From assembly GCA_039621445.1 (NCBI GenBank), contig CP154954.1, forward strand, positions 37,681,703-37,745,702: a stretch of 64,000 bases of DNA, read 5' to 3'. This document shows, piece by piece, positions 6,320 through 43,618 of this stretch (its first letter is position 1; each line of letters starts with the position of its first letter). The notes below the pieces were generated by a model. The model ran no database searches and had not been told where the DNA came from. It saw nothing but the letters and a program-made list of their open reading frames with translations. Both the position numbers and the translations under genes were made by a program. The DNA comes from Euglena gracilis. Lineage: Eukaryota.

Positions 6320-7191
6320 GGTAAGTGCCTTCATGGAGCCCGGACATCCATATACTATACAAATATATATACATTGGTAGCGGAAATCGCTGAACAGCCC
6401 TGGGATGAACCTGGGTCTGTGTCACTCTACGCTCTGGATGGAAGCATCCGAGAGCCCACCCCCCCCCCCGCCACGAGCCCCCCTCTGCCAATGGCCATCC
6501 GGACGGAAACCGTCTGCAAGAGGTAATCGCCTCTTATTGCGTCGTGAAGGAGCTACTGCTGTGAAGACCTTGGCAGCCGGGAAGCCTGGCAAGCCGCTAA
6601 GTGACGCACAGCACACAGCGCGCACGCCGCAAAAATAGGCCAACTTGTCACTTTTCGGCCCTAAGGCCCTTAAGGCTGCCAGACAGCAAAAATTCTGTTC
6701 TGGCCTAAGCCAGCCTCCCTCTCCACCCAACTTTCCCCCCACCCCCGCAAAGCTGTCGCCGGCAGTCGGTTTTGTATGTAGGCTTTTGTTTCCTAGTGCG
6801 GATATGACCGCCTAGGAGCCCTATCCGAGTATGACCAGGATAGGAGTTTGCCCCCCCTTCCACACCTCTCCCCGCAGGTTTTCAGCGAATCGCTTGACCA
6901 ACCCCGCGTGCCTTTGGCACACCCAAAGCGGGTGGATGGGACACTTTGTCAGGAAACTTGCCAAGCCCCGTTTCCCACAGTGGGCTTTTTCACACCCCAC
7001 CTAAGTCGAAACGGCTGATAGGTAACCGCGAAACGCGGCTAACCTTTTGCGCGTTTTTGGGCTTTGGGTGGATGCCACTGTGCGGAAAGGAGAGACACCG
7101 AATGGAGAAGTGAACCCCACCTAGGGCAGCGTCAGATATCCTGACTGGACCTGGGAAACCCTGGTCCATGAAGGAAATCGGGCGGAGCCCT

Positions 7192-7201
7192 GGGAGGGGG
7201 A
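7192..7201 (+). other. Polypurine tract (PPT)
   Basis: GGGAGGGGGA directly before the LTR start TGTGTACC; same at 44048-44057 (-). Confidence 0.88.
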
Positions 7202-7629
7202 TGTGTACCAGGCACGTCCCAGCTCTGTAGGATATCTGCAGAGTGGGTTCTGTGACGGTGGCACCACTGTTGAAATCCACAGCTGGTAGGATCGTGGCAG
7301 ACCCCTCTGGGATCTGCCCCTGGACACGTCAGCACTTTTCTCTCCTTCCCCCACAGGTGGTATTCTTTACTCTCACAATCTCAAAGTTTGACCATTGGTT
7401 TTGTCAGAGGGAAAAACCCTCGGAACAGTCGAACTTGATCTCAGAAGAAACTTCTGAATCTTTGCTTTGTGCTTTGCTTCTTGGGGAGTTGGGAAGAAAA
7501 GGGGAAAACCAGTTTTCGTTACTCCAAAGACTTTTCCCTACCATAAGTAGGCTGCGCACCAAGGCGAAAGCGAAAGGCTTTTACAGAAAGTTCCAAAAAG
7601 GGGAAAAGGGGAAGCTTTGGACGTACATT
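7202..7629 (+). repeat. 3' LTR of copy A1
   Basis: TGTGTACCAGGCAC...GGACGTACA(TT); aligns with 43619-44047 and 59943-60375. Confidence 0.92.
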
Positions 7630-8739
7630 GGCTGGGCTTAATTCAATTTTTCACGATCTCCTCAAATACGAGTACCGTGCAGAGTTACAGCGATCCGTTT
7701 GCACCGCTGGACGGCTCATTGAAAGAGCTTTCGAATGAGGGGTAACATGGCCTATCAGCCAGCTACAGGCGCTGAGATACGTCTTTGATCTTTGGCCTGT
7801 GTCAGTGAGCTTTTGATATAAGCTCCCATAATTTTTTCTACAAAGGCAACTTTTGGTTTCTATCTCATAGGCACTACTACATACAGTCAAAACCTAATGG
7901 CACGAGGTGCCAGAAATTTTGAAGCTTTTGCGGTGGTTTTGAGGCTATGCCAAAGTGACACTTATGCAAATCTGCATAAAACTAGCCTATTTGGCTTGTT
8001 TTGGCCAATTCAGCCACTTTCAGCCATGTAATATGGCTTTTTGTGCCATTTTTTTGAGGTCCTATGGACTTTTCACTTTATAACTTTATAATATGGATTT
8101 GTGGGACCTTTGGTCCTTTTGGTCCTTGCATTTTGTGCAAATTGGTCCTATGGACCCATGGACCACATGGGTATTGGCCCATAGGCCTTGCACATCATAG
8201 GGTGTATTGGTCACATAGACCTAAGGCTAAGTGGTCAAGTCCACAAAAATGCATGTTTGAATGAATTTTTTTCATTTTTTTGGGGGGGGCAACTATGTTG
8301 CAGATTTCCTCAAGAAATTCAACTTATTTCCCTATCGGGATTCACTTCTGCAATAAGAAAAAGGCCATTTTGTTCACAAAAATGGCTGTTCTTTACAAAG
8401 CTGTGCAAGTTCATGGGAAAAATGCAGTATTTGCAATGTATCCCAAAAACTTATCACACACCTTGTGTTTTTGCAAATACCTTCGAAGTTGGCGCAATTG
8501 TGCGCTTGAATGATCAAAACACCTTTGGTGTTCGCCAATGTGGCCAACAAGTTCGTGGTCAAAGAAGGGGGGCTGGCTACTTTTGTTGCTTAAGTAAACC
8601 AAATCTGCATTTTGAGCAGGTGGTTTGCAAATAAACAACAAAAGTGCCGTTGTGAAATATGTACACAAACGGGACTTATTCCCAAAAGAATATGGGTGGG
8701 TTGGGCAGATACCCATTTGTAAGATATACGCAATTGTGC

Positions 8740-17699: not shown

Positions 17700-18760
17700 C
17701 GGGGCGGAGAAGTCCCACCACCTCCAACGGAATCCCCTTGGCTGCACAATAATCCACCACATCCTCGTTGTAGGAGGGGAAGAAATCCGACCAAGGCAGC
17801 CATTGGAGATCCGTCGGATCCCAATTTTTCCACGTCACCTAAAATTCCGGGACCCCCGTTTCCGGGTGGTTCCGGCTGCCAACAATCTCCTCCACCACCC
17901 ACTCATCCGGTCCCACCTCTAGGGGGGCCGCCTTGTCATTGAAATAGAACAGTGGGAGGGGGTCGGTGGAGAACTCGTCCTCCGCGTGGAGCTTGAGTTG
18001 GCTCCGGTGTGTCTCTTGGCGGGCACCCGGGGCCAGCTCCACCACATATGAGTGGCGACCCCGGCGGGCCACCACAGTCCCCCTTTTCCACTTGGTGGCC
18101 AACTTGTCTGTGCCCGGCTGTGTCTCGGGGCGGGACCACACCTTGGCACCGACCTCCAGGGGAGGTGGGTCCCTTCTCCTGGCGTTGATGGAAGCCCACC
18201 TCTTGGCGTGCAGGGCGTTCAGGGTTGAGGCCACCTTCTCGTCCATAGCCCGCATCCGTGCCATGAAGTCGGCTGCCCCCTCGGCCTCTCGTGGGGGCTG
18301 GTGGGGCAGGCCTTGGAGTGGCCGGTGCCGCCCGAAGACCACCTCGTAGGGCGACAAGCCCGACTCTCCTGGCACATCGTGCAGGTGCCGGAGGGCCTTG
18401 GGTAACAGCACCACCCATGAGGCCTCCTTCTCCGACAGGTCAGTGATGAGCTTGGACAGAGTGTTCATCACCCGTTGGCCTGCCACCTCTGCCCGACCGT
18501 TGGCCTGGTGGTGGTAGGCCTGCCCGTAGGCACGCCTCACCTCCATGGCGGCGCACATTGTTTGCCACCAAGCCGAAGCGAAGTGGGGGCCACGGTCCGA
18601 GGTCACCACAGAGGGCACCCCGAACATGTCCCAGTGGCGGAACATGGCCTTGGCCACCACCTCGGCTGTAAGGCCCTACTTCTGGGGGGCGGCCACTGTC
18701 CACCCACTCTCACGGTCCACGCACATGGCCAGGTAATCATACACCTGGACCTCCTCACTC
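17700..18760 (-). pseudogene. pol: Integrase core plus chromodomain of family B (N-terminus deleted)
   Basis: CVDRESG, GVPSVVTSDRGPHF, HHQANGRAE, SPYEVVFG; chromodomain EWVVEEIVG...EF*VTWKNWDPTDLQWLP. Confidence 0.92.
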
Positions 18761-19199
18761 AGAACTCTTTGCCCTGGTTGGTGTTCCTCAGGTCCCCCCC
18801 TCCTTGCCGGCTGTTCATTCCCGAATTCATCCACGAAAAGATGGGCACGTGGGGAACCTCGCGTCTCCCGCGTTTCCAACCCAGGTACCCCAGGTCCCTC
18901 CCCTCCCATGACGATGGGACCTGAATCTCCCGAGGGGGCGTCCACAGGCCCCTCCTCCCCTGTGGGGTCAGGGCCAGGGCCCCCTGGCACTGAATCCTCA
19001 GCCCCCTCCCCCTCTGTGGGGCTGGGGCCAGGTCTGTGCTGTGCTGCTGTGTCTCTCCCACTGCGTGTTGTTACCGCCACGTGGAGTTCCTCCCGCCCGT
19101 GCGGTGTCCCGCATTCTCGCTCTTCCCTCCGTTCCTCTTCGATCATGGCCCTCATTGCCTCAACATCCTCCTCGCTCCCGTGGAGGCTGATGTCGGCAA

Positions 19200-20620
19200 G
19201 TGCCTTGGAGGTAGGATACGCCCATCTGCTGAGGGCATCCGCCACCACGTTTTCCTTTCCCGGAATGTAGACCACGTGAAGGTCAAACCGGGAGAACATT
19301 TCATACCAGCGTCCCCGCCTTCCCGCAGGTCCGCTGGGCGTGTCCAGGGTTTCCTTGGCCCAGGCCTCCAGGGACTTGTGGTCCGTGGGGACCAACACCG
19401 GCTGCAGGCCGATGTAGGAGGCCCATTTTTGGAGTGCCAGGATGATGGCGTAAGTCTCCTTCTCCCGCGGAGACCAGCTTTTCACCTGCCCAGCTGTGAG
19501 ATTTCGGGAGCAGAACGCCACAGGCACTGTTTTCCGTGTTGTGGCCTCCACAGCTGTGGGCATCCCCTCTGTTGGCTCCAAAAACTGTTCAAGTGCTGCC
19601 CCCACCGCCTTGTCGCTCGCATCAACCCGGAGAATAAATGGCTGGTCCGGGTTGATGGTGTGGAGCTCCAATCCCCAGAGGAGCTCCTGATTCAGGGCGG
19701 TGAAGGCCTCCCGTTCCACTTGGCCGAATTTCACAGGTTTTTTGCTGCCTTTTTTCCCTTCCACACGTCCCACCTTGAGGAGTTCCATCAGGAGGGCTGC
19801 ATACAGCGTATACTCCTTCACGTAGCTGGAGTAGTAGTTGGTGAAGCCCAGAAAGCCCCTGAGGGCTGTGATCGTGCGGGGCTCCTCCCACTTCTCCAGC
19901 GCCATGAGTTTGCCCGGTTCTGGCCTCCGTTTTCCTCCCCCCAGGATGTGGCCACAGAATTCCACTTCTCTTACGAAGAAGCGGCACTTGTTTTTGTCCA
20001 CGACTAGGCGGTGTTCCCGCAGTGCCCCTAACACTCGCCTGATGTCCTGGTCGTGTGCCTCCATGGTAGCTTCCTCCGTGCCACACCACTCTGTCCCCAC
20101 GATGATGTCGTCAACGTGTGGGTTGGCGACATCAGCCACTTCCCTCAGCGAGTAGTCGATCACCCGCTGGAAAATGGCCAATCCATTTTTCAGGCCCATC
20201 ACGACCACACACCACTGCTTGGACCCTCGGGGGGTGCTGCAGCAGGTGTATGGGCGTGAGTCTTCGTGCAGGGGCACCTGATGGAAGGCATCCTTGAGAT
20301 CAAGGACGGAGAACAGGTACCTCCGTCCCTGGTTCACCAGGATGTCTTCAATCCTGGGGAGGAGGTAAGCATCCGTCACTGTGGCCTCGTTTAATGCCCG
20401 GAAATCCACAACCCCACGCCACTTCCCCTGTTTCTTGGCCACCACGAATGTGGGGCTGCTCCAGGCACTTGGCACCCCCTCTCCCACCTTCTTGCCCCGA
20501 ACCCTCTCATCCACTAGGTCACACAAGGCCCTGTGCCTCTCCCCCGTCAGGTGGATGGGCCTCTGTTTCTTTGCCACAGATCCCGGTTTTAATTCTATTT
20601 TCCCTTCCCCCAGGGGCCCC
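19200..20620 (-). pseudogene. pol: Reverse transcriptase plus RNase H of family B
   Basis: WRGVVDFRALN, LDLKDAFHQV, MGLKN, HVDD (YxDD mutated); RNase H VDASD...EKETYAI...TDHKSL...VADALSR. Confidence 0.95.
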
Positions 20621-21079
20621 CGAACGATTCTTTCCCCCCAAATCCTGTCTCGGAGAACCTCCCCCTCGAATTCCCTCCGGAGGGCTGCCCGGAGCTCCTC
20701 AGCCTGCTGGCTGGTCACCTGCTCCCCTTCGGGAACAAGGATGACCCCTTGGGCTGCCCGTGCTTCGACCTCCCGGGCTGCCCGCAGGAGTTCCCTGGCC
20801 ACTGTCTCCTGGGTCGCCTCGTCCTCGTGCAGGGGGTTTTCCTCCCACTCAGGCTCCTCGGTATCCTCCCCCAGGGCTGCCTCCGGCAAAGCAAGCCGCA
20901 GTGCTCTGACTTTTTCCACCATTTTCAGGTATTTCACTCGCTTTTGTGCCTTTTTGGTGGCTGCTGGCTGAACTTGCTCACCCTCCGCATCATGTCCCCG
21001 AAGGAGGACCACCTGCTCTCCCCTCAATGCCAAGGCTCGGAGATGTGGAAACACCCCGAGCTGGTTTTCCTCCAGCCAC

Positions 21080-21390
21080 AGAAAGCCGATGATGGCCTCC
21101 ACGTGGATATCTGCCTCGTAGAAGGAGGCTGAGGCCGTCCACAGGGCCCCTTCCCCCTGACCCAAGCCCTCCTCCCGCCGGAGGACCAGGCCCGGGTTGC
21201 CTCACGTTCCCCCCCTTCCATCTTGGCTCCACTACCCGTCACCAGGGACAGGGGCTTGGGGGCAGGCAGGAGGTATGTGCTGGGTAGCATGCCTCTTCGG
21301 ACCAGGTTCACCTCTGCCCCTGTGTCAATGAGGGCGTTGATGAAGTGGGTCTGTCCGTCTGGCCCCCTGGCCTGCACCCGCATCAGCAGC
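21080..21390 (-). pseudogene. pol: Aspartic protease of family B
   Basis: ALIDTGAEVNLV (DTG at 21318-21326); AIIGFLWL after a frameshift. Confidence 0.9.
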
Positions 21391-21519
21391 TGCCGTTCAC
21401 TGGCACCCTGCCCCACCTCACGGAGCAAGACCGAGGGCACCCCTCGCTCTGTCTGGGGGTCCCGCTCTGGCTCCGGAGACCCGGCAGCGTGGGCCTCCGG
21501 TGCCGGTGCTGTGGCCAGG

Positions 21520-22115
21520 TCACGGATGAGCGCCTCTAGGATACGATATTTCAGGTGCCTGGGCAGGTTTTGGTGTTTGCTGCTGAGCCGAATTTTGTGC
21601 CGTCCCTTTCGTCCCCCCTCCGGTACTGGGCTTTCCAGGTTGGTGCAGGTCCGGTCGTCACACACCCGTGGCCGGAGACCCAGGACATGGGGGCTGCCCC
21701 ATATCCTGGTGGGCTTCTGGTAGCCCCAGCCAGCGTACTGGCAGTAATCCACGTCCACGTGTGGGATCCCTGCCATGTACCTGCGGGTCCGCAGGTAACC
21801 GTACCCGGGGTTTTTCAGCCACCACCGCCGTGGGCGGAGGTATCTGGTGATGGCCAGGGCCCGCTGCACCAGCCGATCAGCCAATTTTAAATCTCGTTCC
21901 CTGGTGGTCAGCGCCAGGCTGAATTCGGTGCAGGGGACCCCGCACACCACCACCTCAAAATACCCAGGCTGGAACTGTTTTTTAAAATTCCATTTCAGCA
22001 CGTCAACACAAGTGTCTGGCCGCCACCTGGGGTCCACGTCCACCGACGTGACCTGGTAACCCAGGCTGCGGTAGACGTCCCCTACTGAACCTGTCCCGCA
22101 GAACAGGTCCAGCAT
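21520..22115 (-). CDS. C5-cytosine DNA methyltransferase domain within pol
   Basis: Motif I MLDLFCGTGS, II VDVD, III CVDVL, IV CGVPCTEFS (catalytic PC), VI WWLKNP (ENx-like), DYCQYAGWGYQKPTRIW, C-terminal YRILEALI. Confidence 0.88.
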
Positions 22116-22199
22116 CCGCCTGGGCTGGTCCGCTCTCCCCACCTGCCCCAGGTGTGTCAGCTTGACCTCCCCTGTGGCCCCCCCGGTCCCTGGGGGTGG

Positions 22200-23820
22200 C
22201 CCTGAAAAATGTGTCCCGAACCTGGTTTTTTTTCTCCCGTATTACGGGTGACCAACAGGGTTTGCGGCCGGATTTCCGGTACCAGGATTCACCTTCACCA
22301 GAAACTTCGCGATTCCGACAAGAATCCGGAAAGGATACGCTTGGTGCTCGAGCGTACCCAGGCCCAAAACCACGGAATCATTGGGCTCCTCAGAAAGACT
22401 TCAAGGGCACCATCACAATCGCGAACAAGGTGAAACCACAATGGGACGGTGATCCAAGCACATGAACACAGTTTTTCCGGGACTGGGAGTACTACTTGGC
22501 ATTAAAAGGGCCAACCCAGGACACAAACCCGGAGGTGATCAAGATGGAATTCATCGATTGCCTCCCTAGGGATGAGAAGGACCGCACACGACAACTTGTT
22601 ATTCGCTACCGCGTTTTCCTTGATGACCTGGTGGAGCAATACGCCTCTACCAGTTCAAGTTTGGTCGCTAGGATTACCCTAGAAACCAAGTGGCGGCAAT
22701 GCGCCCCACCCGATCGCAAGTGGAAGTCCATTGCACTTTGGTATGTCAAATGGTTAGGACTTGCCGCAGAAGTGGATGAACTCGGTGAAAAGCAAAGGCG
22801 CGAACAGTTTGATGCTGTTCTCATGCATTTCACGCCTAGCCTCATCAAGGATATCCTAGGTGAGGAGTTGGCGAGTCATCCAATGACTCTTGACCAAGGC
22901 TGGAACTTCCTTTCCAAGCAATTGAAGCTATCACAGCTTCTTGGTCAGATTCAATCCGCTTATAACGCACACCCAACCGCTGGATTACCGGCTGGTTCGG
23001 TGAACGCATTGCAAAATCACCGGTTTCACCCACTTCACCTACCACGGGATCGAAAACACAACATCCGCGTTCTTCGGACGAAGCCACCGATAAAGTGTGC
23101 CTTTTGTGCAACAAAGCGGGACATATGTCCTGGGAATGTCCTAATCCTGAAGCACGTAAGCGTATTCAGAGTCCGCGAGGCTCGACCCCATCACGGGGTT
23201 CGGGTTCCTCTGCTTTTTCACGCCAATCGGGCAATTGACGGTCATCGGGTCCCCGTTCCGGTGGTATTAGCCCCCGGATCCTGTTCCGCGATGAGCGGAA
23301 ACACGGTACCCCTCGGGGTAGGTCACCCGGCGCCCCGGCCAAGAAGCGTGATTCTTATCGCGAGACATCGCGATCGCGTTCGCGAAGCGGATCAACTTCT
23401 TCGCGATCGTCATCGGAAAAAACCCGATGCTCCGGTCATAGTCGACGGGATACCCGCTCACCACGACGGTTTGACGGGAAATGCGGAAACCGATCCCCCC
23501 GTTACCCAGAGTCGCGACACAAATCTCGGTGTGGATCGAGTCATAACCACTCATCCAAATGTCCGCGTTCTCCTTCTCCTGGCCCTGGCCAACATCATCG
23601 CGGTATGAATCGCGGTGACAAGGGTCACTCCTCCAACCGCCATAAAGTCGGTTTCAAGATATCTTCTTTGGAGGATGACACCCCGGCTTCGGGCAGGGAG
23701 GGGGATGAGACCACGGATACCGATTTCGACGAGGCCTGCATGGCGGTGCCCACGTTGAAATCCGTGTATACCTCTAAAAGGCCCATATCCGGCTATTCGG
23801 CCGGTTCGGACCTGGAGTAG
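22200..23820 (+). pseudogene. gag: gag C-terminal part (capsid-like core, CCHC knuckle, RS-rich tail)
   Basis: KPQWDGDP, KMEFIDCLP, knuckle near 23097-23140, LEDDTPASGREGDE...GSDLE-TAG. Confidence 0.85.
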
Positions 23821-25259
23821 GGGAGCCCGAGGTCCGAGGGCACGGACCTGTGGGCTGATGAACAGATGGAGGTAGGACCTGATCATCCCTACCCCCCCCT
23901 GCCCATTTGCCTTCCTGGTCGGTACCCGAAAATTTTCGGGTCCCCCACCCCCACTCCAACTTTCCGCTCGGAATGTTGTCCAAAGTAGGAAAGGGTTCAT
24001 GGGAAAGCTGGCAATAAAACGTATTTTCGGCAGACCGTTCACTTTGCCTACCCCCCATGGAAGTTTTATTCCAAGCGGAAAAACAAAATTTTTTGTCAAA
24101 AGTCAAAATTCTCATGGACACTGGTTGTCACATTGCACTACTTTTTCGGTTCGGGTTGATACCAACGCCCCTCTTGGTGCAAGCCAGGAAGCCGATCAAA
24201 ATTACGACGGCTGACAACACTTCCATGCGCGCTGGTGAAATGATATGCTTTTTGGATATTGTCCTACCCCTCATCCCCAAGCACCACTCAAACCCCCCCC
24301 AACCGCAAAATTTTCCGGATACCTGGGGATATGCTTCGGGAGTCCATGGTTCTGGCGTAATTTTGGGATACCCCTTTTTTACGTCAGCACCGGCTGGTAG
24401 TGGATTGCCACTCCCACGGTTTGCGAACGTCACCAATCTCTTCATTGCCCCCCAAACCTTCATTACCTGTGGCGTCAACCCCGACGACCACCAGTTTTTC
24501 CACACCGTTTCAAAATTTTTTACCCCGTTACCAACCACACCAACCAACGTTTTCCATACCGGGTGTACCGAGAAAGTTCACCCCCTGCCCATTGACACAC
24601 CAACTTCCGTTCCCCATGGGGCAGGGCAAGCGAGTAGCGGTACCCCTCTCGTTCCACTGGGTTACAAGACGAAAGCCCAAAGGCCTGAAGTTATAACGGT
24701 GTCGAGTAGTCGCCCAGCTGCACTAATACCCCGTTTTCCACCAGATGTACCGCTTTCAGACACATCTGCACACCCCCAAACAGCTACAAAAGCGCATCCC
24801 AACTTTTACACACACCCTCACCAGACCAACATGCGCGACCAGGACCATTACTCCGATACTTCCTTCCAATGCGTGCACTGTTGGAGAATTTCCGCCGAGC
24901 CAGATTTGGATTGTGGATGTTTAGTCCAAACACCAACACTAATCCCGATTTCGGTCACCCATACACTTGGTTGCGGATCGCAATGCGCGACTGTACATCA
25001 AGTGCTCCAACAACGAGGTATTGCCTTGTTGTTTGGGACCGCAAAATCCGTGTCACACACCTCCCCCACCTCCATCTGGCACGATATGGACTGGGTATGC
25101 ACCCATCCAACCCATCAACCCTTGGGAATGCCAATCAGGAGTGTGGATGACACACCCCTGACCTATGTTTGCGGATCCCTGAATTGCGTTACTGCTCTTC
25201 AACCCGCGAACCAGGTCGACACCTACGGGATGCGTGTATGGAACGCATTTAAGTTTGGT

Positions 25260-25670
25260 CAATACCGTATTTTGTAGGAATGGTTCTCCAAAATCGCGGC
25301 TTTGGCTGGTTCCTTCGATTTGTCGTCGGAAATGGATGCGTTTTCATCAAAAGCACATGCGCGCTTGTTGCAATATTGGTCGCGACACTCAAACGCGTTT
25401 CTAAAATTTTGGGGTGATACAGTGCTCTGGATGCTCCCTCCCCCAAAACTTATCCTGGATGTGGTGGAGAAAATCCTCCGCGATGAAGCGCGAGGAGCTC
25501 TCCTCATTCCCGTCAATCCGAATGCGGATTGGTTTCACCAATTATCCTATGTGTGTTTTCGTTGGTTGGATTTACTCGCTGATGTACCACTATTTGAGGA
25601 TTTTTGTGGTTTATTATTACCACCCGTTGAAGAAATCATTTTTCACGTTTGTTTCTTTGACGCATTCGGT
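25260..25670 (+). CDS. Dam/DIRS-type N6-adenine methyltransferase-like domain between PR and RT
   Basis: YRIL.EWF.KI...EMDAFSSKAHARLLQYWS..SNAFLKFWGDTVLWMLPPPKLILDVVEKILRDEARGALLIPVNPNADWF follows the DIRS-MT pattern DLFAS..N..L..Y.S..DAF..W....Y.xPP..LI..VL.KI...LI.P.W..WF. Confidence 0.75.
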
Positions 25671-26708
25671 ATATCCGATCTGCGTGTGTCAAGATACCTT
25701 GGTACGGATGGGGATGCCACACCCTCAACACACATTCCTGCTGGCATTGACAACGCGACCAACACCCCAAGTCTGCTGACTATTGTTCGCGAATTACTCG
25801 CTAATTCCATGGTGTACTGGATAACCCAGTTTACGCCTGCGACGTCGACCCCGCGATTCGCGGTCCGTTCGGTGTTTGCAAAATTGAGCTCAAGGATGGC
25901 GCTAAACCCATGTACCGGAAATTCTTCCGTTGTTCGGGTGAACGCGACAAGCTCTCAACGAGATGATTGAGACGCTCATCCAGCGGAAGTGGATTATCCC
26001 TTCCGAGAGGAATGGACATCACAAGCCTTTGTGGTGCCCAAACCTGCTGACCAGTCTGGTCAGAAGAAGTGCAGACTAGTGCTGGATTACCGGTACCTGA
26101 ACTCCCAAATGAAAAATGACCCCTTCTCGTTACCGCTGATCGAGGATTTGATCACAAGACAATCGGATAACTGGTCGTGGTCAATCTTTGATCTGGATGA
26201 CGGTTTCCACCAGATGCATTTGCATCCGGATTCGCAACCGTATACGGCTTTCGTGACATCCAAGGGTGTGTACCAATGGACGGTACTCCCCATGGGTGTT
26301 AAGAATGGCCCAGCACGATCCAGTGGGTTTTGCGCGATTTACCGTTTGCTCTGGTGTACATCGATGATGTACTGGTGGGAACCCAACCACCATCCGCGAA
26401 AAATGGCAAGGATATCCTCGAACTGCATTATCGCGATGTGCGGGCGGTATTGTCCGCGTTCAAAAAGCATTTGCTCTTTGAGAAGGGATCCAAAATGCAA
26501 CTGTTTCGCAAAATTATTAAGTTTTGCGGGAATATGCTGAGCAACTGGCAGCGTAAAGTGCACCCAGTAAGATGGAGGCCATTAAGAAATGGACTCCTGA
26601 GGTCATTAAGACCTTAACGCATTTAAAGGGATATTTTGGGATTAGCCCAATATTACGCGATTTACTTGAAAGATTTTGCGAAAATCGCGGTACCCCTAAC
26701 CCGAAAGC

Positions 26709-27566
26709 TTAAAATTTGGACACCCGATAACGCAAAAGTCATTTGGTATGACGAAATGCGCGAGGCCTTGAATAAAATCAAGGACTTGCTCCTCGGGAAC
26801 GTGGTTCTCGATATCGCGGGTTCATACAAACCGTATTTCCTGGAAGTCGACAGCAGCGATTACGCTGTTGGCGGGGTTCTTAGTCAGCATAATGCGTCGA
26901 ATGAACTCCGACCTGTGGCTTTCTTCAGCAGGAAGCTACAGGGCGACAACGGGAAAGGACAGGTTAAATGGAGCATTCGCGAAACGGAGACATATGCCAT
27001 TGTGCTTATTCTCCAGAAATTCCGCAGCTGGATAGCCAGCAGCTTGGTCCAGATACTCGTGTTGACGGATCATGAGAGCCTTCAACACTGGTATACCGAG
27101 GACCTAAACAACGCCATGTCATCAGTGGGCAGAAGATTTAAAATTTGGACACCCGATAACGCAAAAGTCATTTGGTATGACGAAATGCGCGAGGCCTTGA
27201 ATAAAATCAAGGACTTGCTCCTCGGGAACGTGGTTCTCGATATCGCGGGTTCATACAAACCGTATTTCCTGGAAGTCGACAGCAGCGATTACGCTGTTGG
27301 CGGGGTTCTTAGTCAGCATAATGCGTCGAATGAACTCCGACCTGTGGCTTTCTTCAGCAGGAAGCTACAGGGCGACAACGGGAAAGGACAGGTTAAATGG
27401 AGCATTCGCGAAACGGAGACATATGCCATTGTGCTTATTCTCCAGAAATTCCGCAGCTGGATAGCCAGCAGCTTGGTCCAGATACTCGAGTTGACAGATC
27501 ATGAGAGCCTTCAACACTGGTATACCGAGGACCTAAACAACGCCATGTCATCAGTGGGCAGAAGAC
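26709..27566 (+). repeat. 429-bp near-perfect in-frame tandem duplication of RNase H
   Basis: Units start at 26709 and 27138; KIWTPDNAK...SSVGRR occurs twice in ORF 26636-27688; only about 2 substitutions seen. Confidence 0.95.
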
Positions 27567-29554
27567 GCCGATGGCATGAGTTCTTGAGCCAGTTTATCCT
27601 GGTGGTTATCTATACCCCAGGTCACACACAAAAAGTGGCGGATCCTCTCAGCCGAGCCCCCCTGGTAGTATCCTGGGAACCCGGATGAGGGTGACGCGAC
27701 TTTTCATGGCAGCCATGAGGCTGACCGGTTCGCACGTCGATCCGACGCTGCGGACAACATGCTCGATTCACTACCCGTTTCCTGGGTATATCGCAGCATC
27801 GCCATTTCACCATTGCGTGGAAGGCGCCGGCGTGGACGCACTGCCGGACCCCGTCGCATTACGCGTACGGAAACTCCTACCCCCCTATTTTTCCGCGAAT
27901 GGGATTATTCGCGTGACCCTATATAGTACCATTGTGAATAGACTTCGTAATGGTGAATCCATAGAGAATTACTCTCTATCACCATTGCACCTTATTTTCC
28001 GGAATGATTCTGGTTATAAATATTGTATGCCCCAAGACCTGGTTGATGATGTGATTTTGAGCTGTCACAACCATGGCCACCCTGGGGCCCCCAAACTTCT
28101 TTCTCTAGTGGGTCGCAAATATTGCACAACCCTGAGTGAAAAAAGATTTATATTCGCGCTGTTTGCAAATTTTGCAACGGTGCCAAATCTGTCAGGCTGT
28201 GAAACCGCGCAGAGGTACCCCCCTGGTAGGATGGACTTTTAACTCGTACCACCACACATTTTTACGTCCCTCTGCAATGATTTTCTCGAACTTGAAACTT
28301 GCAAAGGATCAGTCGACAAAATTTCCGATTACTTTTTTGTTGTCGTCTGTCGGTTGAGTGGGTACATAGTAGCCATTCCATGCCGGAAAGCGGGGTTGAC
28401 AGCCCAAACTTTGGCATCCATATTCCTGGAGATGTGTCTGCTTAATGGGTTTACCGAACGAAATCCGTAGTGATCAAGATCACTTGATCTCTTCGCGGTT
28501 TTTCACAACTTTGTGCGATTTACTCGGCACTAAGCAGCATTTTTCAACTATATACCGCCAGAAAGGCAATGGTAGAGCCGAGGCAGCCGTGAAATCTGTT
28601 GTCAATATGCTTCGCCTTTCACTGGCTGACTCGGGTAAGAATTGGTTATCCGTTCTTCATTGGTGTTTATTTTACGTCAATACCTTGCCAGGGTTGGTAT
28701 TACCACACTCGCCATACAAAATTGTTTTTGGACGGGATCCTCCGGCCATAGGGGATATCCCCTCGGAAGTACCCGCCCGAAGTAGCGTCAGCTGTGAAAC
28801 GTGGTTTGCAGAAGTGGAATCACTCCGACCTGAAGTCCAATCACGTACCACAGAAATTCATTCCAACAAAAGGAAATCGTTTTTACAAACTTCAACACAC
28901 CTGTGCATAGTTCGGGTGACCGCGTGTGGGTACGGAGTAACCGCACCCGCATGCAACCTTCCAAGCTAGATCCTCTTTGGGTCGGACCATGCGAAATTTT
29001 GGAGAGGTTAGGTAGTAGCGGGCGATATAAAGTTGCCTTGCAGTTGCCTTGCCCAACAGGATTGAGGACATCCATATGGACAAGTTCCCACCGTACCTAA
29101 GCACCCCGGACGGAAACGCAATCCCCTGCCTATATTTCAAGCCCCGTTCCAGAGTACCTGAAACGGACGACTTTGTGGTCGATAAGATAATAGACCACAA
29201 GGTCGACAGGAATGTGCCCTACGGAAACGTTCGTTGGAAATGGTATGGGCCAGAGGAGGACACTTGGGAGCCAGCATCCAGTTTTGTTGGCTATACCCAT
29301 CAGGATTGGAAGCTGTGGAACAAGCGCAGTAACGTAAACATAAACATAAACACTTTCTGAAACGATTTCGTTTTGGAGAATGCGTGCGTTTTATGTGAAT
29401 GTTTCGTGTTTATGCCCCCCTGCACTTCCTCCTTTCTCTATCTTTGTCGCAGAGTTTTTTGATTAGGATAGAAGCCTTCTTTTTCAGTGCGCCAGCACAC
29501 AAACCGACTGACATCAAAGTTTCCCTTCGTTGCAGTCGTTGTTCGGGTAGCATC

Positions 29555-32216: not shown

Positions 32217-34679
32217 ACAGTTAGGTAAAGCCCTTGTTTTTGGAACGCCGGCGCAGCCGATTTCGGCCGAAAATGACGTTTCTGGGGGCAGTCCGTTACT
32301 TACGTGCTATTTTGCGCCTCCCGGGCGGTAACGGCTGCGTTTTATGCACGCCTGCCGCGGGCAAAAATGCGGCTAGCTGCCCGCCGCACTTCGCAATTGT
32401 CAGAAAAAGGATCGCCAACCTCTAGCCGGGGCAGAGCGCTCGCTTTTGGAGTGCCGGCGCAGCCGATTTCGGCCGAAAATGGCCGAAAAATGACGTTTTT
32501 GTGGGCGTCCGTTACTTACGTGCTGTATTGCGCCTCCCGGGCGGTAACGGCTGCGTTTTACGCACGCCCGCGGCAGGCAAATTGGCGGCTCTCCGCCCGC
32601 CGCACTTCGCAACAGGACCGCCGACCTCTAGCCGGGGCACAGGGCTCGTTTTTGGAGCGCCGGTGCAGCCGATTTCGGCGGAAAACGGCCGAAAAAAGAC
32701 GTTTCTGGGGGGCGTTCGTTACTTACGTTCTATTTTGTGCCGCCCGGGCGGTAACGGCTGCGTTTTACGCACGCCCGCCGCGGGCAAAATTACTTCTATC
32801 CGGCCGCCGCCCTTTGCAACAGTTAGGTAAAGGATCGCCGTCCTCTAGCCGGGGCAGAGCGCCCGTTTTTGGACCCACGGCGCAGCCGATACGGCCAACA
32901 CGGGAAAAAATGACGTTACCTACGGACGTACTATTTTGCGCCTCCCGGGCGGTAACCGCTGCGTTTTACGCACGCCCGCCACGAGAAGGACGGCGGGCCG
33001 ATAACCGCAATTTTGGCCGCGGCACGCGTGCGAAAAACGCAGCCGTTCCCGCCCGGGAGGCGCAAAACAGCACGTAAGTATCGGACGCCCCCCAAAAACG
33101 TTGTTTTTTGGCCGTTTTCGGCCGAAATCGGCTGCGCCGGCGTTCCAAAAACGAGCGCTCTGTCCCGGCTAGAGGTCGGCACCCCATTACCTAACTGATG
33201 CAAACGGCGGCGGGCGGATAGCCGCAATTTTGCCCGCGGCGGGGGTGCGTAAAACGCAGCCGTTACCGCCCGGGAGGCGCAAAACAGCACGTAAGTAACG
33301 GACGCCCCCCAAAAGCGTCACTTTTCGGCCGTTTTCGGCCGAAATCGGCTGCACCAGCCTTCCAAAAACGAGCGCTCTGCCCCGGCTGGAGGGCGGCGAT
33401 CCTTTACCTAACTGATGCAAACGGCGGCGGGCCGATAGCCGCAATTTTGTACGCGGCGGGCGTGCGTAAAACGCAGCCGTTAACGCCCGGGAGGCGCAAA
33501 GTAGCATGTAAGTAACGAACGCCCCGGAAAAACGTCACTTTTCGGCCGTTTTCGGCCAAAATCAGCTGCGACAGCGCTCCAAAAACGAGCGCTGTGCCCC
33601 GAATAGTGGTCGATGATCCTTCACCTGACTGTTGCGAAGGGCGGCGGGCCGATAGCCGCATTTTTGCCCGCGGCGGGCGTGCATAGAACGCAGCCGTTAC
33701 CGCCCGGAAGGCGAAAAATAGCACGTAAGTAACGGACGCCTTCCAAAAAGGTCATTTTACGGCCGTTTTCGGCCGGAATTCACTGCGCCGGCGGTCTATA
33801 AACGAGCGCTCTGCCCCGGCTAGAGGTCGGCGATCCTTTACCTAACTGTTGCGAAGGGCGGCGGGCGGACAAATTTTGCCCGCGGCGGGTGTGCGTAAAA
33901 CGCAGCCGTTACCGCCCGGGAGGCACAAAATAGCACGTAAGTAACGGACTTCCCCCAAAAAACGCCATTTTTCGGCCGTTTTAGGCCAAAATCGGATGCG
34001 CCGGCGCTCCAAAAACGAGCGCTCTGCCCCGGCTACTGGTGGGCGATCCTTTGCCTAACTGTTGCGAAGGGCGGCGGGCGGATAGTGTGTACGAGGCGTA
34101 TGCTTCTGTCCCCTTCCGTTGAGGAAGTTAGGATGGAAGCAGAGCCTATTAGGATCTCCTAATGGGTGCCCCTTCTCTCTCCACAGGTGGTATTCTCCTT
34201 TATTCCTTTTCCTTCCTTTCCATCGGACCAGACTTGGTTATCCAGTCCGTCCTCCATGCATTGCACTGTGCTTTGCTTCTTGGGAAGTGGGAAAAGGGTT
34301 TTTACTGTTACTCTGATTTTCAGTTCCCAAGTAGGTGCGCCAAGGCGAAAGCGAAGTTTTTTGGAAATTAGGAAAGGGGAATTAGGAATCAGACGTCCAC
34401 TGATAGCCCGCAAATTTGGGAGCGTTTTAGGAGCGCTGGCGCAGCCGATTTCGGCCGAAAACGGCCGAAAAATGACGTTTTTGGGGGCGTCCGTTACTTA
34501 CGTGCTATTTTGTGCCTCCCGGGCGGTAACGGCTGCGTTTTACGCACGCCCGCCGCGGGCAAAATTGCGGCTACCCGCCCGCCGCCCTTCGCAACGGTTA
34601 GGTAAAGGATCGCCGACCTCTAGCCGGGGCAGTGCGCTCGGTTTTGGAACGCCGGCGCAGCCGATTTCGGCCGAAAACG
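32217..34679. repeat. ~216-bp CpG-rich satellite with two orientation switches
   Basis: ggtaacggctgcgtttt recurs near 32326, 32543, 32749 and 32950 (+); inverted near 33035, 33251, 33468, 33686 and 33897; + again near 34525. Confidence 0.95.
34086..34401 (+). repeat. Solo LTR (short family-A subfamily) with 5-bp TSD GATAG
   Basis: GATAG(34081-34085)-TGTGTACG...GACGTCCACT-GATAG(34402-34406); matches the LTR at 40676-40991. Confidence 0.9.
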
Positions 34680-37600: not shown

Positions 37601-38100
37601 CAAACGGGGACGGGGACCCCACAACCACTCACAGGTACGTTCAGCCAAAGCAGCCAGCAGTGGGGGAACGAAACACCACACCCAAAAATGGAAGGAGGAG
37701 CTGCAGCACTGGGGACCGTTAACCCGGCTTCCCTTGTGGGGCAGCTCATCCAGTAGGAACTGAAAACCGCCTTGACACCACTAATCGCCGAGCTGACTCG
37801 ACAGACAGAACAACGACAGACTGTAGTGCCGACCAGCCCAGCACTTACGACAAACCCGACAAACCTAGCACCACCACAGCCAACCCAGCCGACTCAACAG
37901 ATTTCACAGCCACTGACGACACAACGAAACCCACAGACACGGGCTCGGAGCTTTTTCGTGTGGGCAGACGAAATCGAAACTCAGAACACAGCCACAACAA
38001 CCTGTGTGCGCCAGGTCACGTTCCCTCAGGGAGCACGATTTTTCGGCAGAGGGGAGGAGTCGTGCCGGGGGACCAAGTGGCCCATCACAGCCTTTTTGCT
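34680..38100 (+). mobile_element. Probable 5' part of another retroelement: TGTG-starting leader plus long Q/T/E-rich coiled-coil (gag-like) frame
   Basis: Starts abruptly inside the satellite with TGTGATTC; ORFs 35086-35976, 36076-36450, 36396-37376 and onward; ~78-bp repeats at 35290-35480 and ggggaccc repeats at 37400-37730; no diagnostic motif. Confidence 0.45.
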
Positions 38101-41049: not shown

Positions 41050-41745
41050 CGCCGACCTCTAGCCGGGGCAGATCGCTCGTTTTGGAGCGCCGGCGCAGCC
41101 TATTTCGGCCGAAAACGGCCGAAAAATGACGTTTTTTGGGGCGTCCGTTACTTGCGTGCTATTTTGTGCCTCGCGGGCGGTAACGGCTGCGTTTTCCGCA
41201 CGGCCGCCGCTGTCAAAATTGCGACGATCTACCCGCCGCCCTTTGCAACAGTTAGGTAAAGGATCGCCGACCTCTAGCCGTGGCAGAACGCTCGTTTTTG
41301 GAGTGCCGGCGCAGCCGATTTCGGCCGAAAACGGCCGAAAAATGAAGTTTCTGGGGACATCCGATACTTACGTGCTATTTCGCGCCTCCCGGGCGGTAAC
41401 GGCTGCGTTTTGCGCTTGAGCGCCGCTGGCAAAATTGCGGCTATATGCCCGCCGCCCTTCGAAACAGCTGGGTAAAGGGTCGCTGACCTCTAGCCGGGGC
41501 AGCGCGGTCGTTTTTGGAGTGCCGGCGCAGCCAATTTCGGCCGAAAATGGTCGAAAAATGACGTATTTTGGGGGCGTCTGTTACATACGTGCCATTTTGC
41601 GCCTCCCGGGCGGTAACGGCTGCGTTTTACGCACGCGCCCGCGGGCAAAATTGCCGCTATCCGGCAGCAGCCTTTCGCAACAGTTAGGTTATGGATCGCC
41701 GACCTCTAAAGGGGCAGAGCGCTCGTTTTTGGAGCGCCGGCGCAG
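41050..41745 (+). repeat. ~216-bp satellite (about 3 units)
   Basis: Same unit as 32217-34679; ggtaacggctgcg near 41179, 41395 and 41612. Confidence 0.95.
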
Positions 41746-43560: not shown

Positions 43561-43618
43561 GGCGCCCACACCCACCGGAGCCCCAGAGCGCCAAGCGAGA
43601 ACCGAAGAGGGCGCAAGG

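What the first reader, a model, noticed from the sequence alone, without database searches (positions are those of the whole stretch)
21024..22196. C5-cytosine DNA methyltransferase fused in frame to the protease of a chromodomain Gypsy element
Seen: one uninterrupted ORF encodes a compact ~200-aa MTase (LDLFCGTG; VDVD; CVDVL; GVPCTEFS with intact catalytic PC; WLKNP; DYCQY..YQKPTRIW; YRI..LI), then a linker, then ALIDTGAEVNLV, followed by RT-RH-IN-chromodomain. The frame stays open upstream to the truncation. Known: these are C5-MTase motifs I-IV, VI and X-like, and cytosine MTases have been reported in retrotransposons of dinoflagellates and charophyte algae, so the idea has precedent. Inference: the enzyme is processed from Pol and packaged, and could methylate new cDNA while the chromodomain steers integration to heterochromatin. 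This may be an independent capture from a viral or bacterial-type MTase. Motif VI has K in place of E (a single G>A change), so this copy may be inactive.
Basis: partly seen in the sequence, partly recalled or inferred. Interest (0 to 1): 0.88.

Follow-up and report, generated by a model that had tools for sequence, protein, structure and literature searches.

The report
Dead methyltransferase-carrying Gypsy retrotransposon copy
This is a broken, truncated copy of a Gypsy-type jumping gene whose polyprotein really does carry a small cytosine DNA methyltransferase ahead of its protease, a kind of element that a 2026 preprint has already described.

Summary
On the minus strand, ORF 21024-22241 encodes a 212-aa domain with C5-cytosine-methyltransferase motifs, then a linker, then the protease motif. 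RT, RNase H, integrase core and a chromodomain follow.

The window's own copy misses Pfam PF00145. Its relatives do not: 40 of 53 long homologs match, a family profile hits DNMT1, and the predicted fold matches DNMT3A/B, M.HhaI, DNMT1 and DIM2 (Z 10-14).

The domain belongs to the element family. Relatives carry it inside Gypsy Pol in at least six positions, often beside a Dam-like adenine methyltransferase. One relative is a Cymbomonas protein with the architecture the preprint calls an EpiLTR (bioRxiv 10.64898/2026.05.21.726589, May 2026). So this is a new member of a known kind.

This copy is dead:
- It is cut at both ends and has no LTRs.
- A 1-nt frameshift splits the protease.
- Two in-frame TAG stops interrupt the integrase and the chromodomain.
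- The integrase zinc finger is missing.
- Lys replaces the motif VI Glu, which 109 of 109 relatives keep.
- Leu replaces a conserved motif X Pro.

One addition: the nearest relatives outside transposons are standalone MTases of about 208 aa on giant-virus-like contigs. What the enzyme does for the element was not tested.

The parts
22242..22378 (-). Upstream remnant between the repeat boundary (22378) and the TAA that closes the MTase frame. It may be the linker or tail that follows a Dam-like domain in the closest relatives.
   Evidence: Contigs of DNA run X1 break away on both sides of 22378 (13 and 14 records). A match to the stretch after the Dam domain of P0021 lies in another frame but is weak (E 0.12).
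21501..22136 (-). Compact C5-cytosine DNA methyltransferase domain (212 aa) with motifs I, IV, VI, VIII and X in the usual order and a very short target-recognition region.
   Evidence: Homologs reach E 1e-88. PF00145 matches 40 of 53 long homologs. The AF2 model has pLDDT 85. Foldseek and VIA best matches are DNMT3A/B, M.HhaI, DNMT1 and DIM2.
21930..21935 (-). Pro-Cys of motif IV (catalytic cysteine), intact.
   Evidence: Read from the sequence. The Cys is present in 109 of 109 aligned relatives.
21813..21815 (-). Lys codon in place of the motif VI Glu (WWLKNP instead of WW[LI]ENP).
   Evidence: Glu stands here in 48 of 48 full-length homologs and in 109 of 109 rows of the tree alignment.
21537..21539 (-). 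Leu codon in place of the conserved Pro of the motif X-like YRIP.
   Evidence: Pro stands here in 106 of 109 rows, the other 3 being gaps. At 21538, 35 contigs of DNA run X1 read another letter than the window.
21022..21440 (-). Retropepsin-type protease (DTG at 21318-21326), split by a frameshift.
   Evidence: P0021, P0096 and P0169 align up to 21198-21201 in one frame and resume at 21141 or 21129 in another.
21142..21200 (-). Interval that holds the 1-nt loss breaking the protease frame.
   Evidence: P0096 has 20 residues where the window has 59 nt. In run X1, 11 contigs carry one more base behind 21193.
19105..20742 (-). Reverse transcriptase and RNase H.
   Evidence: Pfam RVT_1 E 1e-27 and RT_RNaseH E 3.8e-19. 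Aligns to P0044, P0096 and P0169.
17906..18741 (-). Integrase core, lacking the HHCC zinc finger and the start of the core, with an in-frame TAG at 18676-18678.
   Evidence: Read through with X, rve scores E 1.2e-8 over profile positions 25-101 of 102. P0096 residues 1678-2077 have no counterpart, with 370 nt in their place. The stop is shown.
17704..17905 (-). Chromodomain, interrupted by an in-frame TAG at 17839-17841.
   Evidence: Read through with X, Pfam Chromo scores E 4.8e-4, 20.4 bits against a cut-off of 25.1. It aligns to the Pfam-confirmed chromodomain ends of P0106 and P0096. At 17841, 42 contigs of run X1 read another letter.

Best explanation
The stretch 17.6-22.4 kb (minus strand) is an internal fragment of a Ty3/Gypsy chromovirus. 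In the intact family, Pol reads [Dam-like N6-adenine MTase]-C5-cytosine MTase-protease-RT-RNase H-integrase-chromodomain as one polyprotein. The MTase is a true DNMT-fold domain with a minimal target-recognition region, and it is a stable module of this retrotransposon family. The elements fit the 'EpiLTR' type recently described in Cymbomonas and Euglena.

Inferred mechanism for intact members: the MTase is made as part of Gag-Pol, enters the virus-like particle, is freed by the protease, and puts 5mC on the new cDNA or on the fresh insertion. The chromodomain then steers integration.

Shown here: the fold, the motifs, the fusion, and the spread of the module across the family. Not shown: activity, sequence specificity, processing and packaging.

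The window's copy cannot do any of this. It has lost its 5' part and both LTRs. Its protease is frameshifted, its integrase is deleted and stopped, and its chromodomain is stopped. Its MTase carries Lys for the motif VI Glu and Leu for the motif X Pro.
For: MTase identity:
- Relatives number 2803 cluster representatives at E<=1e-3, with 169 at E<=1e-30.
- PF00145 matches 40 of 53 homologs of 300 aa or more, best E 1.3e-8.
- A profile of 13 family members finds DNMT1 first in the PDB (E 4e-4), aligned from PC to ENV.
- The AF2 model has pLDDT 85 and pTM 0.82.
- Foldseek's listed best matches are DNMT3A/B/C, DNMT1 and DIM2 at E about 2e-8.
- VIA-align ranks 1-20 of 48,161 chains are all C5-MTase-fold enzymes at Z 14.1-9.8. 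Generic Rossmann MTases start at rank 21 with Z<=9.6.

Fusion is a family trait:
- P0096 is an open 2513-aa protein with DNMT, protease, RVT_1, RNase H, rve and Chromo.
- P0021, P0187 and P0189 read DAM-MT-PR, and P0186 (584 aa) reads DAM-MT.
- L001 and L004 read MT-PR-RT.
- 9 of 18 longer homologs carry Pfam Dam.
- In DNA run X1 the MTase bins are as deep as the RT bins: 267,000-379,000 against 225,000-401,000.

Link to EpiLTRs:
- P0164 and its cluster are Cymbomonas tetramitiformis proteins.
- P0173 of that cluster reads PR-RT-RNase H-Dam-IN-Chromo-DNMT, as the preprint's section 8 describes for Cymbomonas.

Decay of this copy.
Against: - PF00145 does not match the window's own domain at E<=0.1. 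A single-sequence PDB search gives no C5 enzyme. NCBIfam dcm reaches only E 0.29.
- No Dam domain is left in this copy. The only trace is a weak match (E 0.12) to the stretch that follows the Dam domain in P0021.
- The window chromodomain stays below Pfam's cut-off even when read through.
- No LTRs were found.
- Whether other copies in the same genome keep Glu at motif VI is unknown. The read table showed no row for that codon, and 142 rows were not shown.
- RNA runs gave only 32, 17 and 45 reads over 6 kb and almost none on the MTase, so there is no sign of expression.
- The host species is not known to me.
- No activity data exist for this family in what I read.
Confidence: 0.85

Rival explanations
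1. The MTase does not act on the element's own cDNA. It works in trans on host chromatin, as was proposed for Symbiodinium retrotransposon DNMTs. Alternatively it serves as camouflage or protection of DNA, as viral MTases are thought to do, so that new copies resemble a host genome that is methylated by default.
For: Standalone homologs sit on giant-virus-like contigs next to PolB, ribonucleotide reductase and D5-type primase genes. The preprint reports 5mC as nearly the default state at CG in Euglena gracilis (passage in section 10). The 2018 paper discusses effects on host methylomes (PMC5890265, abstract and section 6).
Against: Nothing here separates action in cis from action in trans. The domain's constant place inside Pol fits packaging with the cDNA.
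Confidence: 0.3
2. The MTase stretch is a passive or chimeric insertion, a nested fragment or an assembly artefact in this one copy, with no role in the element.
For: The element is a fragment in a nest of other retrotransposons. The preprint warns of nested insertions and assembly artefacts in Euglena (section 7).
Against: The same MT-PR junction occurs in many independent sources: 11 MT-PR proteins, P0096, L001, L004 and L018. The MTase bins are as deep as the RT bins in a DNA run. In the careful tree 34 of 35 retro-linked MTases form one clade with support 100/99.
Confidence: 0.03
3. The domain has the DNMT fold but another substrate or chemistry. It could be a Dnmt2-like tRNA m5C enzyme, a C5-carboxymethyltransferase, or a non-catalytic DNA binder like DNMT3L.
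For: Dnmt2 enzymes, a C5-carboxymethyltransferase and DNMT3L all appear among the structural matches at Z 9.5-11.9. The target-recognition region is very short and modelled with low confidence (residues 165-185).
Against: The catalytic Cys, the ENP Glu and the SAM motif are kept across 109 relatives, which argues against a non-catalytic role in the family. The top matches are DNA enzymes. Viral and retroelement contexts point to DNA.
Confidence: 0.07
4. This is a new, independent capture of an MTase by a Gypsy element, unrelated to DNMT-bearing retrotransposons in print.
For: The position upstream of the protease differs from the Cymbomonas elements, where the DNMT is at the 3' end of Pol (preprint section 8). 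In the careful tree the Cymbomonas MTase groups with a viral row, apart from the main retro clade (99/91).
Against: The domain is plainly homologous to the Cymbomonas one (E 1.3e-31). The AU test does not reject a single clade of all retro-linked MTases (p 0.07). The preprint reports Euglena elements with DAM, DNMT and chromodomain, which are the parts found in the window's closest relatives.
Confidence: 0.05

Closest known systems
EpiLTRs: Ty3/Gypsy elements with DAM, DNMT and chromodomain in Euglena gracilis and Cymbomonas tetramitiformis (Fernandez-Moreno et al., bioRxiv 10.64898/2026.05.21.726589; I read the abstract, sections 7, 8 and 11, and passages)
   Same: It is a Gypsy/chromovirus backbone with a DNMT of the same protein family. 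The Cymbomonas cluster P0164 is a direct hit. The closest relatives carry a Dam-like domain just upstream of the DNMT. Neighbouring elements in the window carry Dam-like domains.
   Different: This copy has no Dam domain left and is dead. The DNMT lies upstream of the protease, not at the 3' end of Pol as in Cymbomonas. The domain order in Euglena is given only in figures I could not see. The host of the window is unknown to me.
KnitGypsy-Dnmt3 of Klebsormidium nitens (de Mendoza et al. 2018, PMC5890265, section 9 read)
   Same: A C5-MTase sits inside the Pol ORF of a Gypsy retrotransposon. Structurally, DNMT3A/B are the best matches of the window domain.
   Different: That DNMT is reported as a Dnmt3 family member. 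The window's domain is about 200 aa and about 20% identical to DNMT3 in structural alignments. Its sequence relatives are compact viral-type MTases. I did not test this by phylogeny against Dnmt3.
SymbioLINE-Dnmt and SymbioDIRS-Dnmt3 of Symbiodinium (PMC5890265, section 6 read)
   Same: Retrotransposons encode C5-MTases. That paper's abstract reports de novo CG methylation by retrotransposon DNMTs.
   Different: Those are LINE and DIRS backbones with a tyrosine recombinase or an endonuclease. They have no protease-integrase-chromodomain Pol.
Standalone MTases of about 205-209 aa on giant-virus-like and other viral metagenome contigs (IMG/VR loci L081-L144)
   Same: They have the same length, the same motifs (PC, ENP, DYC, KPTR, three conserved Cys) and 29-44% identity over the whole domain.
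   Different: They are free-standing genes on low-GC contigs (median 0.34), next to PolB, RNR and D5-type primase genes. 62 of 64 loci have no RT, PR or IN nearby.
DNMT3A/DNMT3B catalytic domain and bacterial M.HhaI (solved structures)
   Same: The fold and motif order agree. DNMT3A 4u7t_C gives Z 14.1 over 188 residues at rmsd 3.8, and M.HhaI 10mh_A gives Z 13.2 over 200 residues.
   Different: Identity is 14-20%. The domain is shorter and has almost no target-recognition domain. No PWWP or ADD partners are present.

Membership tests
C5-cytosine DNA methyltransferase (Pfam PF00145, DNMT fold) | Match to the family profile | tested here: inconclusive
   The window domain has no PF00145 hit at E<=0.1, and dcm TIGR00675 scores E 0.29. 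However, 40 of 53 long homologs match PF00145, and the family profile hits DNMT1 at E 4e-4.
C5-cytosine DNA methyltransferase (Pfam PF00145, DNMT fold) | Motif I FxGxG (SAM binding) and motif IV Pro-Cys (catalytic nucleophile). The motif names are recalled knowledge. | tested here: met
   LDLFCGTGS and GVPCTEFS are in the sequence. Cys is present in 109 of 109 relatives and Phe in 103 of 109.
C5-cytosine DNA methyltransferase (Pfam PF00145, DNMT fold) | Motif VI Glu-Asn-Val/Pro | tested here: not met
   This copy has Lys-Asn-Pro. Glu stands there in 109 of 109 relatives. The family meets the feature; the copy does not.
C5-cytosine DNA methyltransferase (Pfam PF00145, DNMT fold) | Fold of the catalytic domain | tested here: met
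   The model has pLDDT 85. VIA ranks 1-20 are all C5-MTase-fold chains at Z 14.1-9.8 and cover residues 1-212. Foldseek gives probability 1.00.
C5-cytosine DNA methyltransferase (Pfam PF00145, DNMT fold) | Transfers methyl to C5 of cytosine in DNA | not testable with these tools
   This needs an enzyme assay of an intact relative.
Ty3/Gypsy chromovirus (LTR retrotransposon) | Pol order PR-RT-RNase H-IN | tested here: met
   DTG at 21318-21326, RVT_1 E 1e-27, RT_RNaseH E 3.8e-19, and rve E 1.2e-8 read through with X, all in this order on the minus strand.
Ty3/Gypsy chromovirus (LTR retrotransposon) | Chromodomain at the C-terminus of integrase | tested here: inconclusive
   Pfam Chromo scores E 4.8e-4, 20.4 bits, below the 25.1 cut-off, when read through a stop with X. 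The stretch aligns to relatives whose Chromo passes the cut-off.
Ty3/Gypsy chromovirus (LTR retrotransposon) | Long terminal repeats and gag | tested here: not met
   No direct repeat pair flanks the element. The family-wide depth ends near 17620 and 22378. No gag was seen. The copy is an internal fragment.
EpiLTR (DAM + DNMT + chromodomain LTR element) | DNMT of the EpiLTR DNMT family | tested here: met
   The Cymbomonas protein P0164 (KAK3250676.1) is hit at E 1.3e-31. P0173 of its cluster shows the published Cymbomonas architecture.
EpiLTR (DAM + DNMT + chromodomain LTR element) | Dam-like N6-adenine MTase in the same element | tested here: not met
   It is absent from this truncated copy. 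The only trace is a weak match (E 0.12) to the stretch after the Dam domain of P0021. A Dam-like domain lies directly upstream of the MTase in P0021, P0186, P0187 and P0189, and Pfam Dam is on 9 of 18 longer homologs.
EpiLTR (DAM + DNMT + chromodomain LTR element) | Placement with the Euglena/Cymbomonas DNMT clade, sister to DNMT4 | not testable with these tools
I had no DNMT4 or Euglena reference sequences.
Dnmt3-type retrotransposon DNMT (KnitGypsy-Dnmt3, SymbioDIRS-Dnmt3) | Groups with Dnmt3 in a DNMT phylogeny | not tested
   The only evidence is structural: DNMT3A/B are the top matches at about 20% identity. No Dnmt3 sequences were available for a tree.

The most novel reading that the evidence does not exclude
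The compact DNMT of these chromoviruses is not a trimmed host DNMT. It belongs to a family whose other members are free-standing genes of about 208 aa in giant-virus-like genomes. The module has passed between such viruses and LTR retrotransposons, perhaps twice: once for the main retro clade and once for the Cymbomonas lineage. It has since been moved to at least six different places in Pol.
Probability: 0.4. Interest if true: 0.6.

Novelty: new member of a known kind. Interest (0 to 1): 0.38.

Why it matters
Retrotransposons that carry their own DNA methyltransferases show mobile elements writing epigenetic marks, not only being silenced by them. This window adds a degenerate example of a type already in print, so it does not change the picture by itself.

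Two observations made while checking it may help people who work on these elements:

- The same small DNMT module sits at many positions in Gypsy Pol across freshwater and marine metagenomes.
- Its nearest relatives outside transposons are standalone genes on giant-virus-like contigs. That bears on where the module came from.

Tried and rejected
**Profile and sequence searches that gave nothing**
- The single-sequence searches of the window domain gave no C5-MTase call. They were Pfam, NCBIfam and PDB phmmer.
- A dinoflagellate origin was my first guess. A spliced-leader motif search found 0 matches, and this tested little.
- No own genome is held for the window.
- Rfam and tRNA scans of the window found nothing.
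- Pfam on 10 other window ORFs gave no host gene.
- Earlier notes of this scan held nothing.

**Dam remnant.** A search for a Dam-domain remnant upstream of the MTase gave only an E 0.12 match, to the stretch after the Dam domain of P0021 and in another frame. I do not count it.

**Nested insertion.** I asked whether the neighbouring plus-strand element split this one. No minus-strand match to the upstream part of P0021 lies beyond 29.4 kb, so this is not supported.

**TAG reassignment.** Both in-frame stops are TAG. Relatives have a Leu at the second site (P0106) and apparently a Lys or Arg at the first (my reading). 42 contigs of a DNA run read another first letter at the second site. I read both stops as mutations.

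**Two origins of the retro-linked MTases.** The AU test of one clade gave p 0.07 on the first data set, and I named the group after seeing the tree. One origin is therefore not excluded.

**Expression.** RNA runs gave 32, 17 and 45 reads over 6 kb at 90% likeness or more. Most of those in two of the runs fit only in part. This is no evidence of transcription of this copy.
Full report
**What is in the sequence**

On the minus strand, a stop-to-stop ORF covers 21024-22241 (405 aa).
- LDLFCGTGS
- GVPCTEFS, with Pro-Cys codons at 21930-21935
- WWLKNP, with the Lys codon at 21813-21815
- DYCQY..GYQKPTRIW
- KYRILEALI
- a linker, then ALIDTGAEVNLV, with Asp-Thr-Gly at 21318-21326

Downstream on the same strand lie:
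- RVT_1 (E 1e-27) and RT_RNaseH (E 3.8e-19) in ORF 18679-21201
- an integrase core
- a chromodomain-like end

The MTase occurs only once in the window.

**Is it a C5-cytosine methyltransferase?**

The window's own domain fails the direct tests:
- PF00145 gives no hit at E<=0.1.
- NCBIfam dcm scores E 0.29 over 18 residues.
- A single-sequence search of the PDB finds no C5 enzyme.

The indirect tests are clear:
- A scan of 1.84 billion cluster representatives gave 2803 relatives at E<=1e-3, 1306 at E<=1e-10 and 169 at E<=1e-30.
- Of the 53 listed relatives of 300 aa or more, 40 match PF00145, best E 1.3e-8.
- A profile of 13 members finds DNMT1 first in the PDB (E 4e-4). The alignment runs from the PC motif to ENV.
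- An AlphaFold2 model built on that alignment has mean pLDDT 85 and pTM 0.82. Only residues 165-185 are poorly modelled.
- Foldseek's listed best matches are DNMT3A/B/C, DNMT1 and DIM2, at E about 2e-8 and probability 1.00.
- VIA-align against 48,161 chains puts C5-MTase-fold enzymes at ranks 1-20, and generic Rossmann methyltransferases begin at rank 21 with Z<=9.6. Examples from ranks 1-20:
  - DNMT3A 4u7t_C: Z 14.1, 188 residues, rmsd 3.8
  - M.HhaI: Z 13.2
  - MET1, DIM2, Dnmt2, M.MpeI, M.HaeIII and ZMET2
  - DNMT5: Z 9.8
- The protein atlas lists clusters of 213-219 aa, mostly viral, with PF00145 on 16-64% of members.

The domain is therefore a compact DNMT-fold enzyme with almost no target-recognition domain.

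**Is the fusion a property of the element family?**

Yes. The same module lies inside Gypsy Pol in many independent sources.
- P0096 is an uninterrupted 2513-aa protein with DNMT, protease, RVT_1, RNase H, rve and Chromo.
- P0021, the best hit at 67% identity, reads Dam-MT-PR, as do P0187 and P0189. P0186 (584 aa) reads Dam-MT.
- L001 and L004 read MT-PR-RT.

Other orders also occur:
- PR-Dam-MT-RT-IN (P0190, P0192, P0197)
- Dam-PR-MT-RT (P0067, L003, L006)
- PR-MT-Dam (P0036, P0045)
- PR-RT-MT-IN (P0169, L011)
- PR-RT-RNase H-Dam-IN-Chromo-MT (P0173)

Further counts:
- Of 18 longer homologs, 9 carry Pfam Dam.
- In a DNA run that holds this repeat, 12,057 contig pieces were laid on the 6-kb stretch. 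The MTase bins are as deep as the RT bins, 267,000-379,000 against 225,000-401,000. Depth is not copy number, but the MTase is no rarer than RT.

**State of this copy**

It is an internal fragment and it is dead.
1. Contigs of the DNA run break away at 22378, and depth falls near 17620. No LTR pair flanks the element.
2. The protease is split. Relatives align up to 21198-21201 in one frame and resume at 21141 in another. The window has 59 nt where P0096 has 20 residues. In the DNA run, 11 contigs carry one more base behind 21193.
3. An in-frame TAG lies in the integrase at 18676-18678 and another in the chromodomain at 17839-17841. At 17841, 42 contigs read another letter.
4. P0096 residues 1678-2077 have no counterpart. 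They include the HHCC finger and the start of the integrase core. The window has 370 nt in their place.
5. Read through with X, the integrase core scores E 1.2e-8 over profile positions 25-101 of 102. Chromo scores E 4.8e-4, below Pfam's cut-off.
6. In the MTase, 46 columns are at least 80% conserved among 48 full-length homologs, and the window departs at 3 of them. That equals the median for other members, whose range is 0-10.
7. Two of those three departures hit the most constant residues:
   - Lys replaces the motif VI Glu. Glu stands in 109 of 109 other rows.
   - Leu replaces the motif X Pro. Pro stands in 106 of 109 rows, the other 3 being gaps.
8. At the middle base of the Leu codon, 35 contigs read another letter.
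9. Whether other genomic copies keep Glu I could not see. No row was shown for that codon, and 142 rows were hidden.
10. RNA runs gave 32, 17 and 45 reads over the 6 kb and almost none on the MTase.

**What is known**

*de Mendoza et al. 2018 (PMC5890265; sections 6 and 9 read).* The paper describes SymbioLINE-Dnmt, SymbioDIRS-Dnmt3 and KnitGypsy-Dnmt3. Its abstract reports de novo CG methylation by retrotransposon DNMTs.

*Fernandez-Moreno et al., bioRxiv 10.64898/2026.05.21.726589, 22 May 2026.* I read the abstract, sections 7, 8 and 11, and passages.
- It describes Ty3/Gypsy elements that combine DAM, DNMT and a chromodomain in Cymbomonas tetramitiformis and Euglena gracilis, and names them EpiLTRs.
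- It reports that their DNMTs form one clade, sister to DNMT4.
- That tree is a supplementary figure I could not see. Figures are not held, so the domain order in Euglena is unknown to me.

*The link to the window.*
- P0164 hits the window domain at E 1.3e-31. It heads a cluster of 19 Cymbomonas tetramitiformis proteins.
- P0173 of that cluster has the published Cymbomonas architecture.
- The window's neighbours also carry Dam-like domains: 25314-25538 on the plus strand (Pfam Dam E 3.7e-4, below the cut-off), 37991-38131 and 53642-54112.

*Literature searches.* They were. The only paper holding 'Euglena gracilis', 'retrotransposon', 'DNA methyltransferase' and 'chromodomain' together was that preprint.

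The finding is therefore a further, degenerate member of a described kind. If the window comes from E. gracilis itself, it is already known. I cannot tell which.

**Relatives outside retrotransposons**

- Of 80 metagenome loci kept, from 545 confirmed of 593 candidates, 9 show retroelement domains next to the MTase and 71 show the MTase alone. Many of those 71 are short contigs.
- In IMG/VR, 64 loci encode relatives at 29-44% identity over the whole domain. Of these, 62 have no RT, PR, IN or Dam nearby. One (L130) reads RT-IN-MT, and one gave no hit in my re-scan.
- In the 8 loci I checked (6 from IMG/VR, 2 metagenome), the gene is a free-standing ORF of 205-215 aa.
- Pfam on 10 neighbouring ORFs found family B DNA polymerase, ribonucleotide reductase, three D5-type primase-helicases, a dynamin and an ABC transporter. 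One ORF had only a marginal Dockerin hit, and two had no hit.
- Median GC of these loci is 0.34, against 0.48-0.58 for the retroelement loci.
- Phage records hold only distant relatives: 12 records, the best at 30% identity and E 6e-17.

**Trees**

*Data set.* I built a careful IQ-TREE tree of 96 rows, with three phage enzymes as outgroup. 22 near-identical rows had been dropped beforehand and are listed.

*Result.*
- 34 of 35 retro-linked MTases form one clade, together with one short metagenome contig (L005). Support is 100/99.
- The window sits with P0021 and P0186 (100/90).
- The sister of the retro clade is a viral and metagenome group, but that node is weak (75/83).
- The Cymbomonas MTase pairs with a viral row, L127, which lies next to a PolB gene (99/91).
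- None of 200 bootstrap trees unites all retro rows.

*Limits.*
- An AU test on the first, 110-row set does not reject one clade (p 0.07), and I named the group after seeing the tree.
- No cellular DNMT families were in these trees, so the preprint's DNMT4 placement is neither confirmed nor contradicted.
- In the passages I saw, viral sequences come up for DAM, not for the DNMT. One search showed 12 of 14 places.

**How it most likely works**

For intact members I infer the following sequence:
1. The MTase is translated within Gag-Pol and enters the particle.
2. The adjacent protease releases it.
3. It methylates cytosines on the new cDNA or on the fresh insertion.
4. The chromodomain guides integration.

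Shown here are only the fold, the conserved catalytic residues across the family, and the constant place inside Pol. Action in trans on host DNA, or a role as camouflage in a host whose CG sites are methylated by default, fits the data as well. That state is reported for Euglena in the preprint's section 10 (passage).

**Verdict**

The claim of novelty is overtaken by a 2026 preprint, and this copy is a wreck. Two points may be worth passing on: the module's many positions in Pol, and its kinship with compact genes on giant-virus-like contigs.

Noticed in passing
window 22378-29384 (+): The neighbouring element on the plus strand is a Gypsy chromovirus with a Dam-like domain and no C5-MTase. 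Its parts are a gag-like ORF (22466-23605), a protease match (24093-24266), Dam (25314-25538; Pfam Dam E 3.7e-4, below the cut-off), RT/RNase H (25829-27655), integrase (28130-28741) and Chromo (E 1.2e-7, within 29031-29360). It abuts the truncated 5' end of the MTase element.
   Followed up: partly
window 26709-27437 (+): A perfect 429-bp tandem duplication (two 300-nt copies, 100% identical) lies inside the RNase H region of that neighbour. The ORF 26627-27688 therefore repeats about 140 residues, and Pfam sees the RNase H domain twice.
   Followed up: no
window 50559-55263 (-): Another degenerate Gypsy element carries a Dam-like stretch. Its parts are a protease match (55102-55263), Dam-like (53642-54112), RT/RNase H (52181-53769) and integrase (50559-52036), spread over several frames. 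Pfam found no Dam in the ORF 53597-54142.
   Followed up: partly
window 37991-38131 (+): A short stretch is 53% identical to residues 372-418 of P0021, which span the end of its Dam domain and the stretch after it (E 2e-12). Pfam found nothing in the ORF around it.
   Followed up: no
window 32256-34085 and 41033-41623: Two blocks of tandem repeats have a period of about 217 bp, with related units in both blocks (families D1-D4). Their nature is unknown.
   Followed up: no
window 42752-43574: A very GC-rich array of units about 48-49 bp long is rich in C and G runs (family D5). It lies in a stretch with open frames on both strands.
   Followed up: no
MTase domain residues C132, C159, C164 (window 21501-22136, -): Three cysteines outside the catalytic motif are kept in 109, 108 and 108 of 109 relatives, across retroelement, viral and phage rows. 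A His after them is nearly invariant in alignment A2. They flank the short, poorly modelled region where the target-recognition domain would be. A zinc site is my guess only.
   Followed up: no
protein P0067 (NCBI EPS62093.1): A Dam-PR-MT-RT fragment of this family is filed as a partial hypothetical protein of the carnivorous plant Genlisea aurea, on a 2.5-kb contig. It may come from a trapped or associated protist and not from the plant. That is my inference.
   Followed up: no
L130 (IMG/VR contig, 8083 bases): One 'viral' contig holds RT (3545-4753), integrase (5210-6247) and the MTase (7166-7672) in the Cymbomonas-like order. It looks like a retroelement filed among viruses.
   Followed up: no
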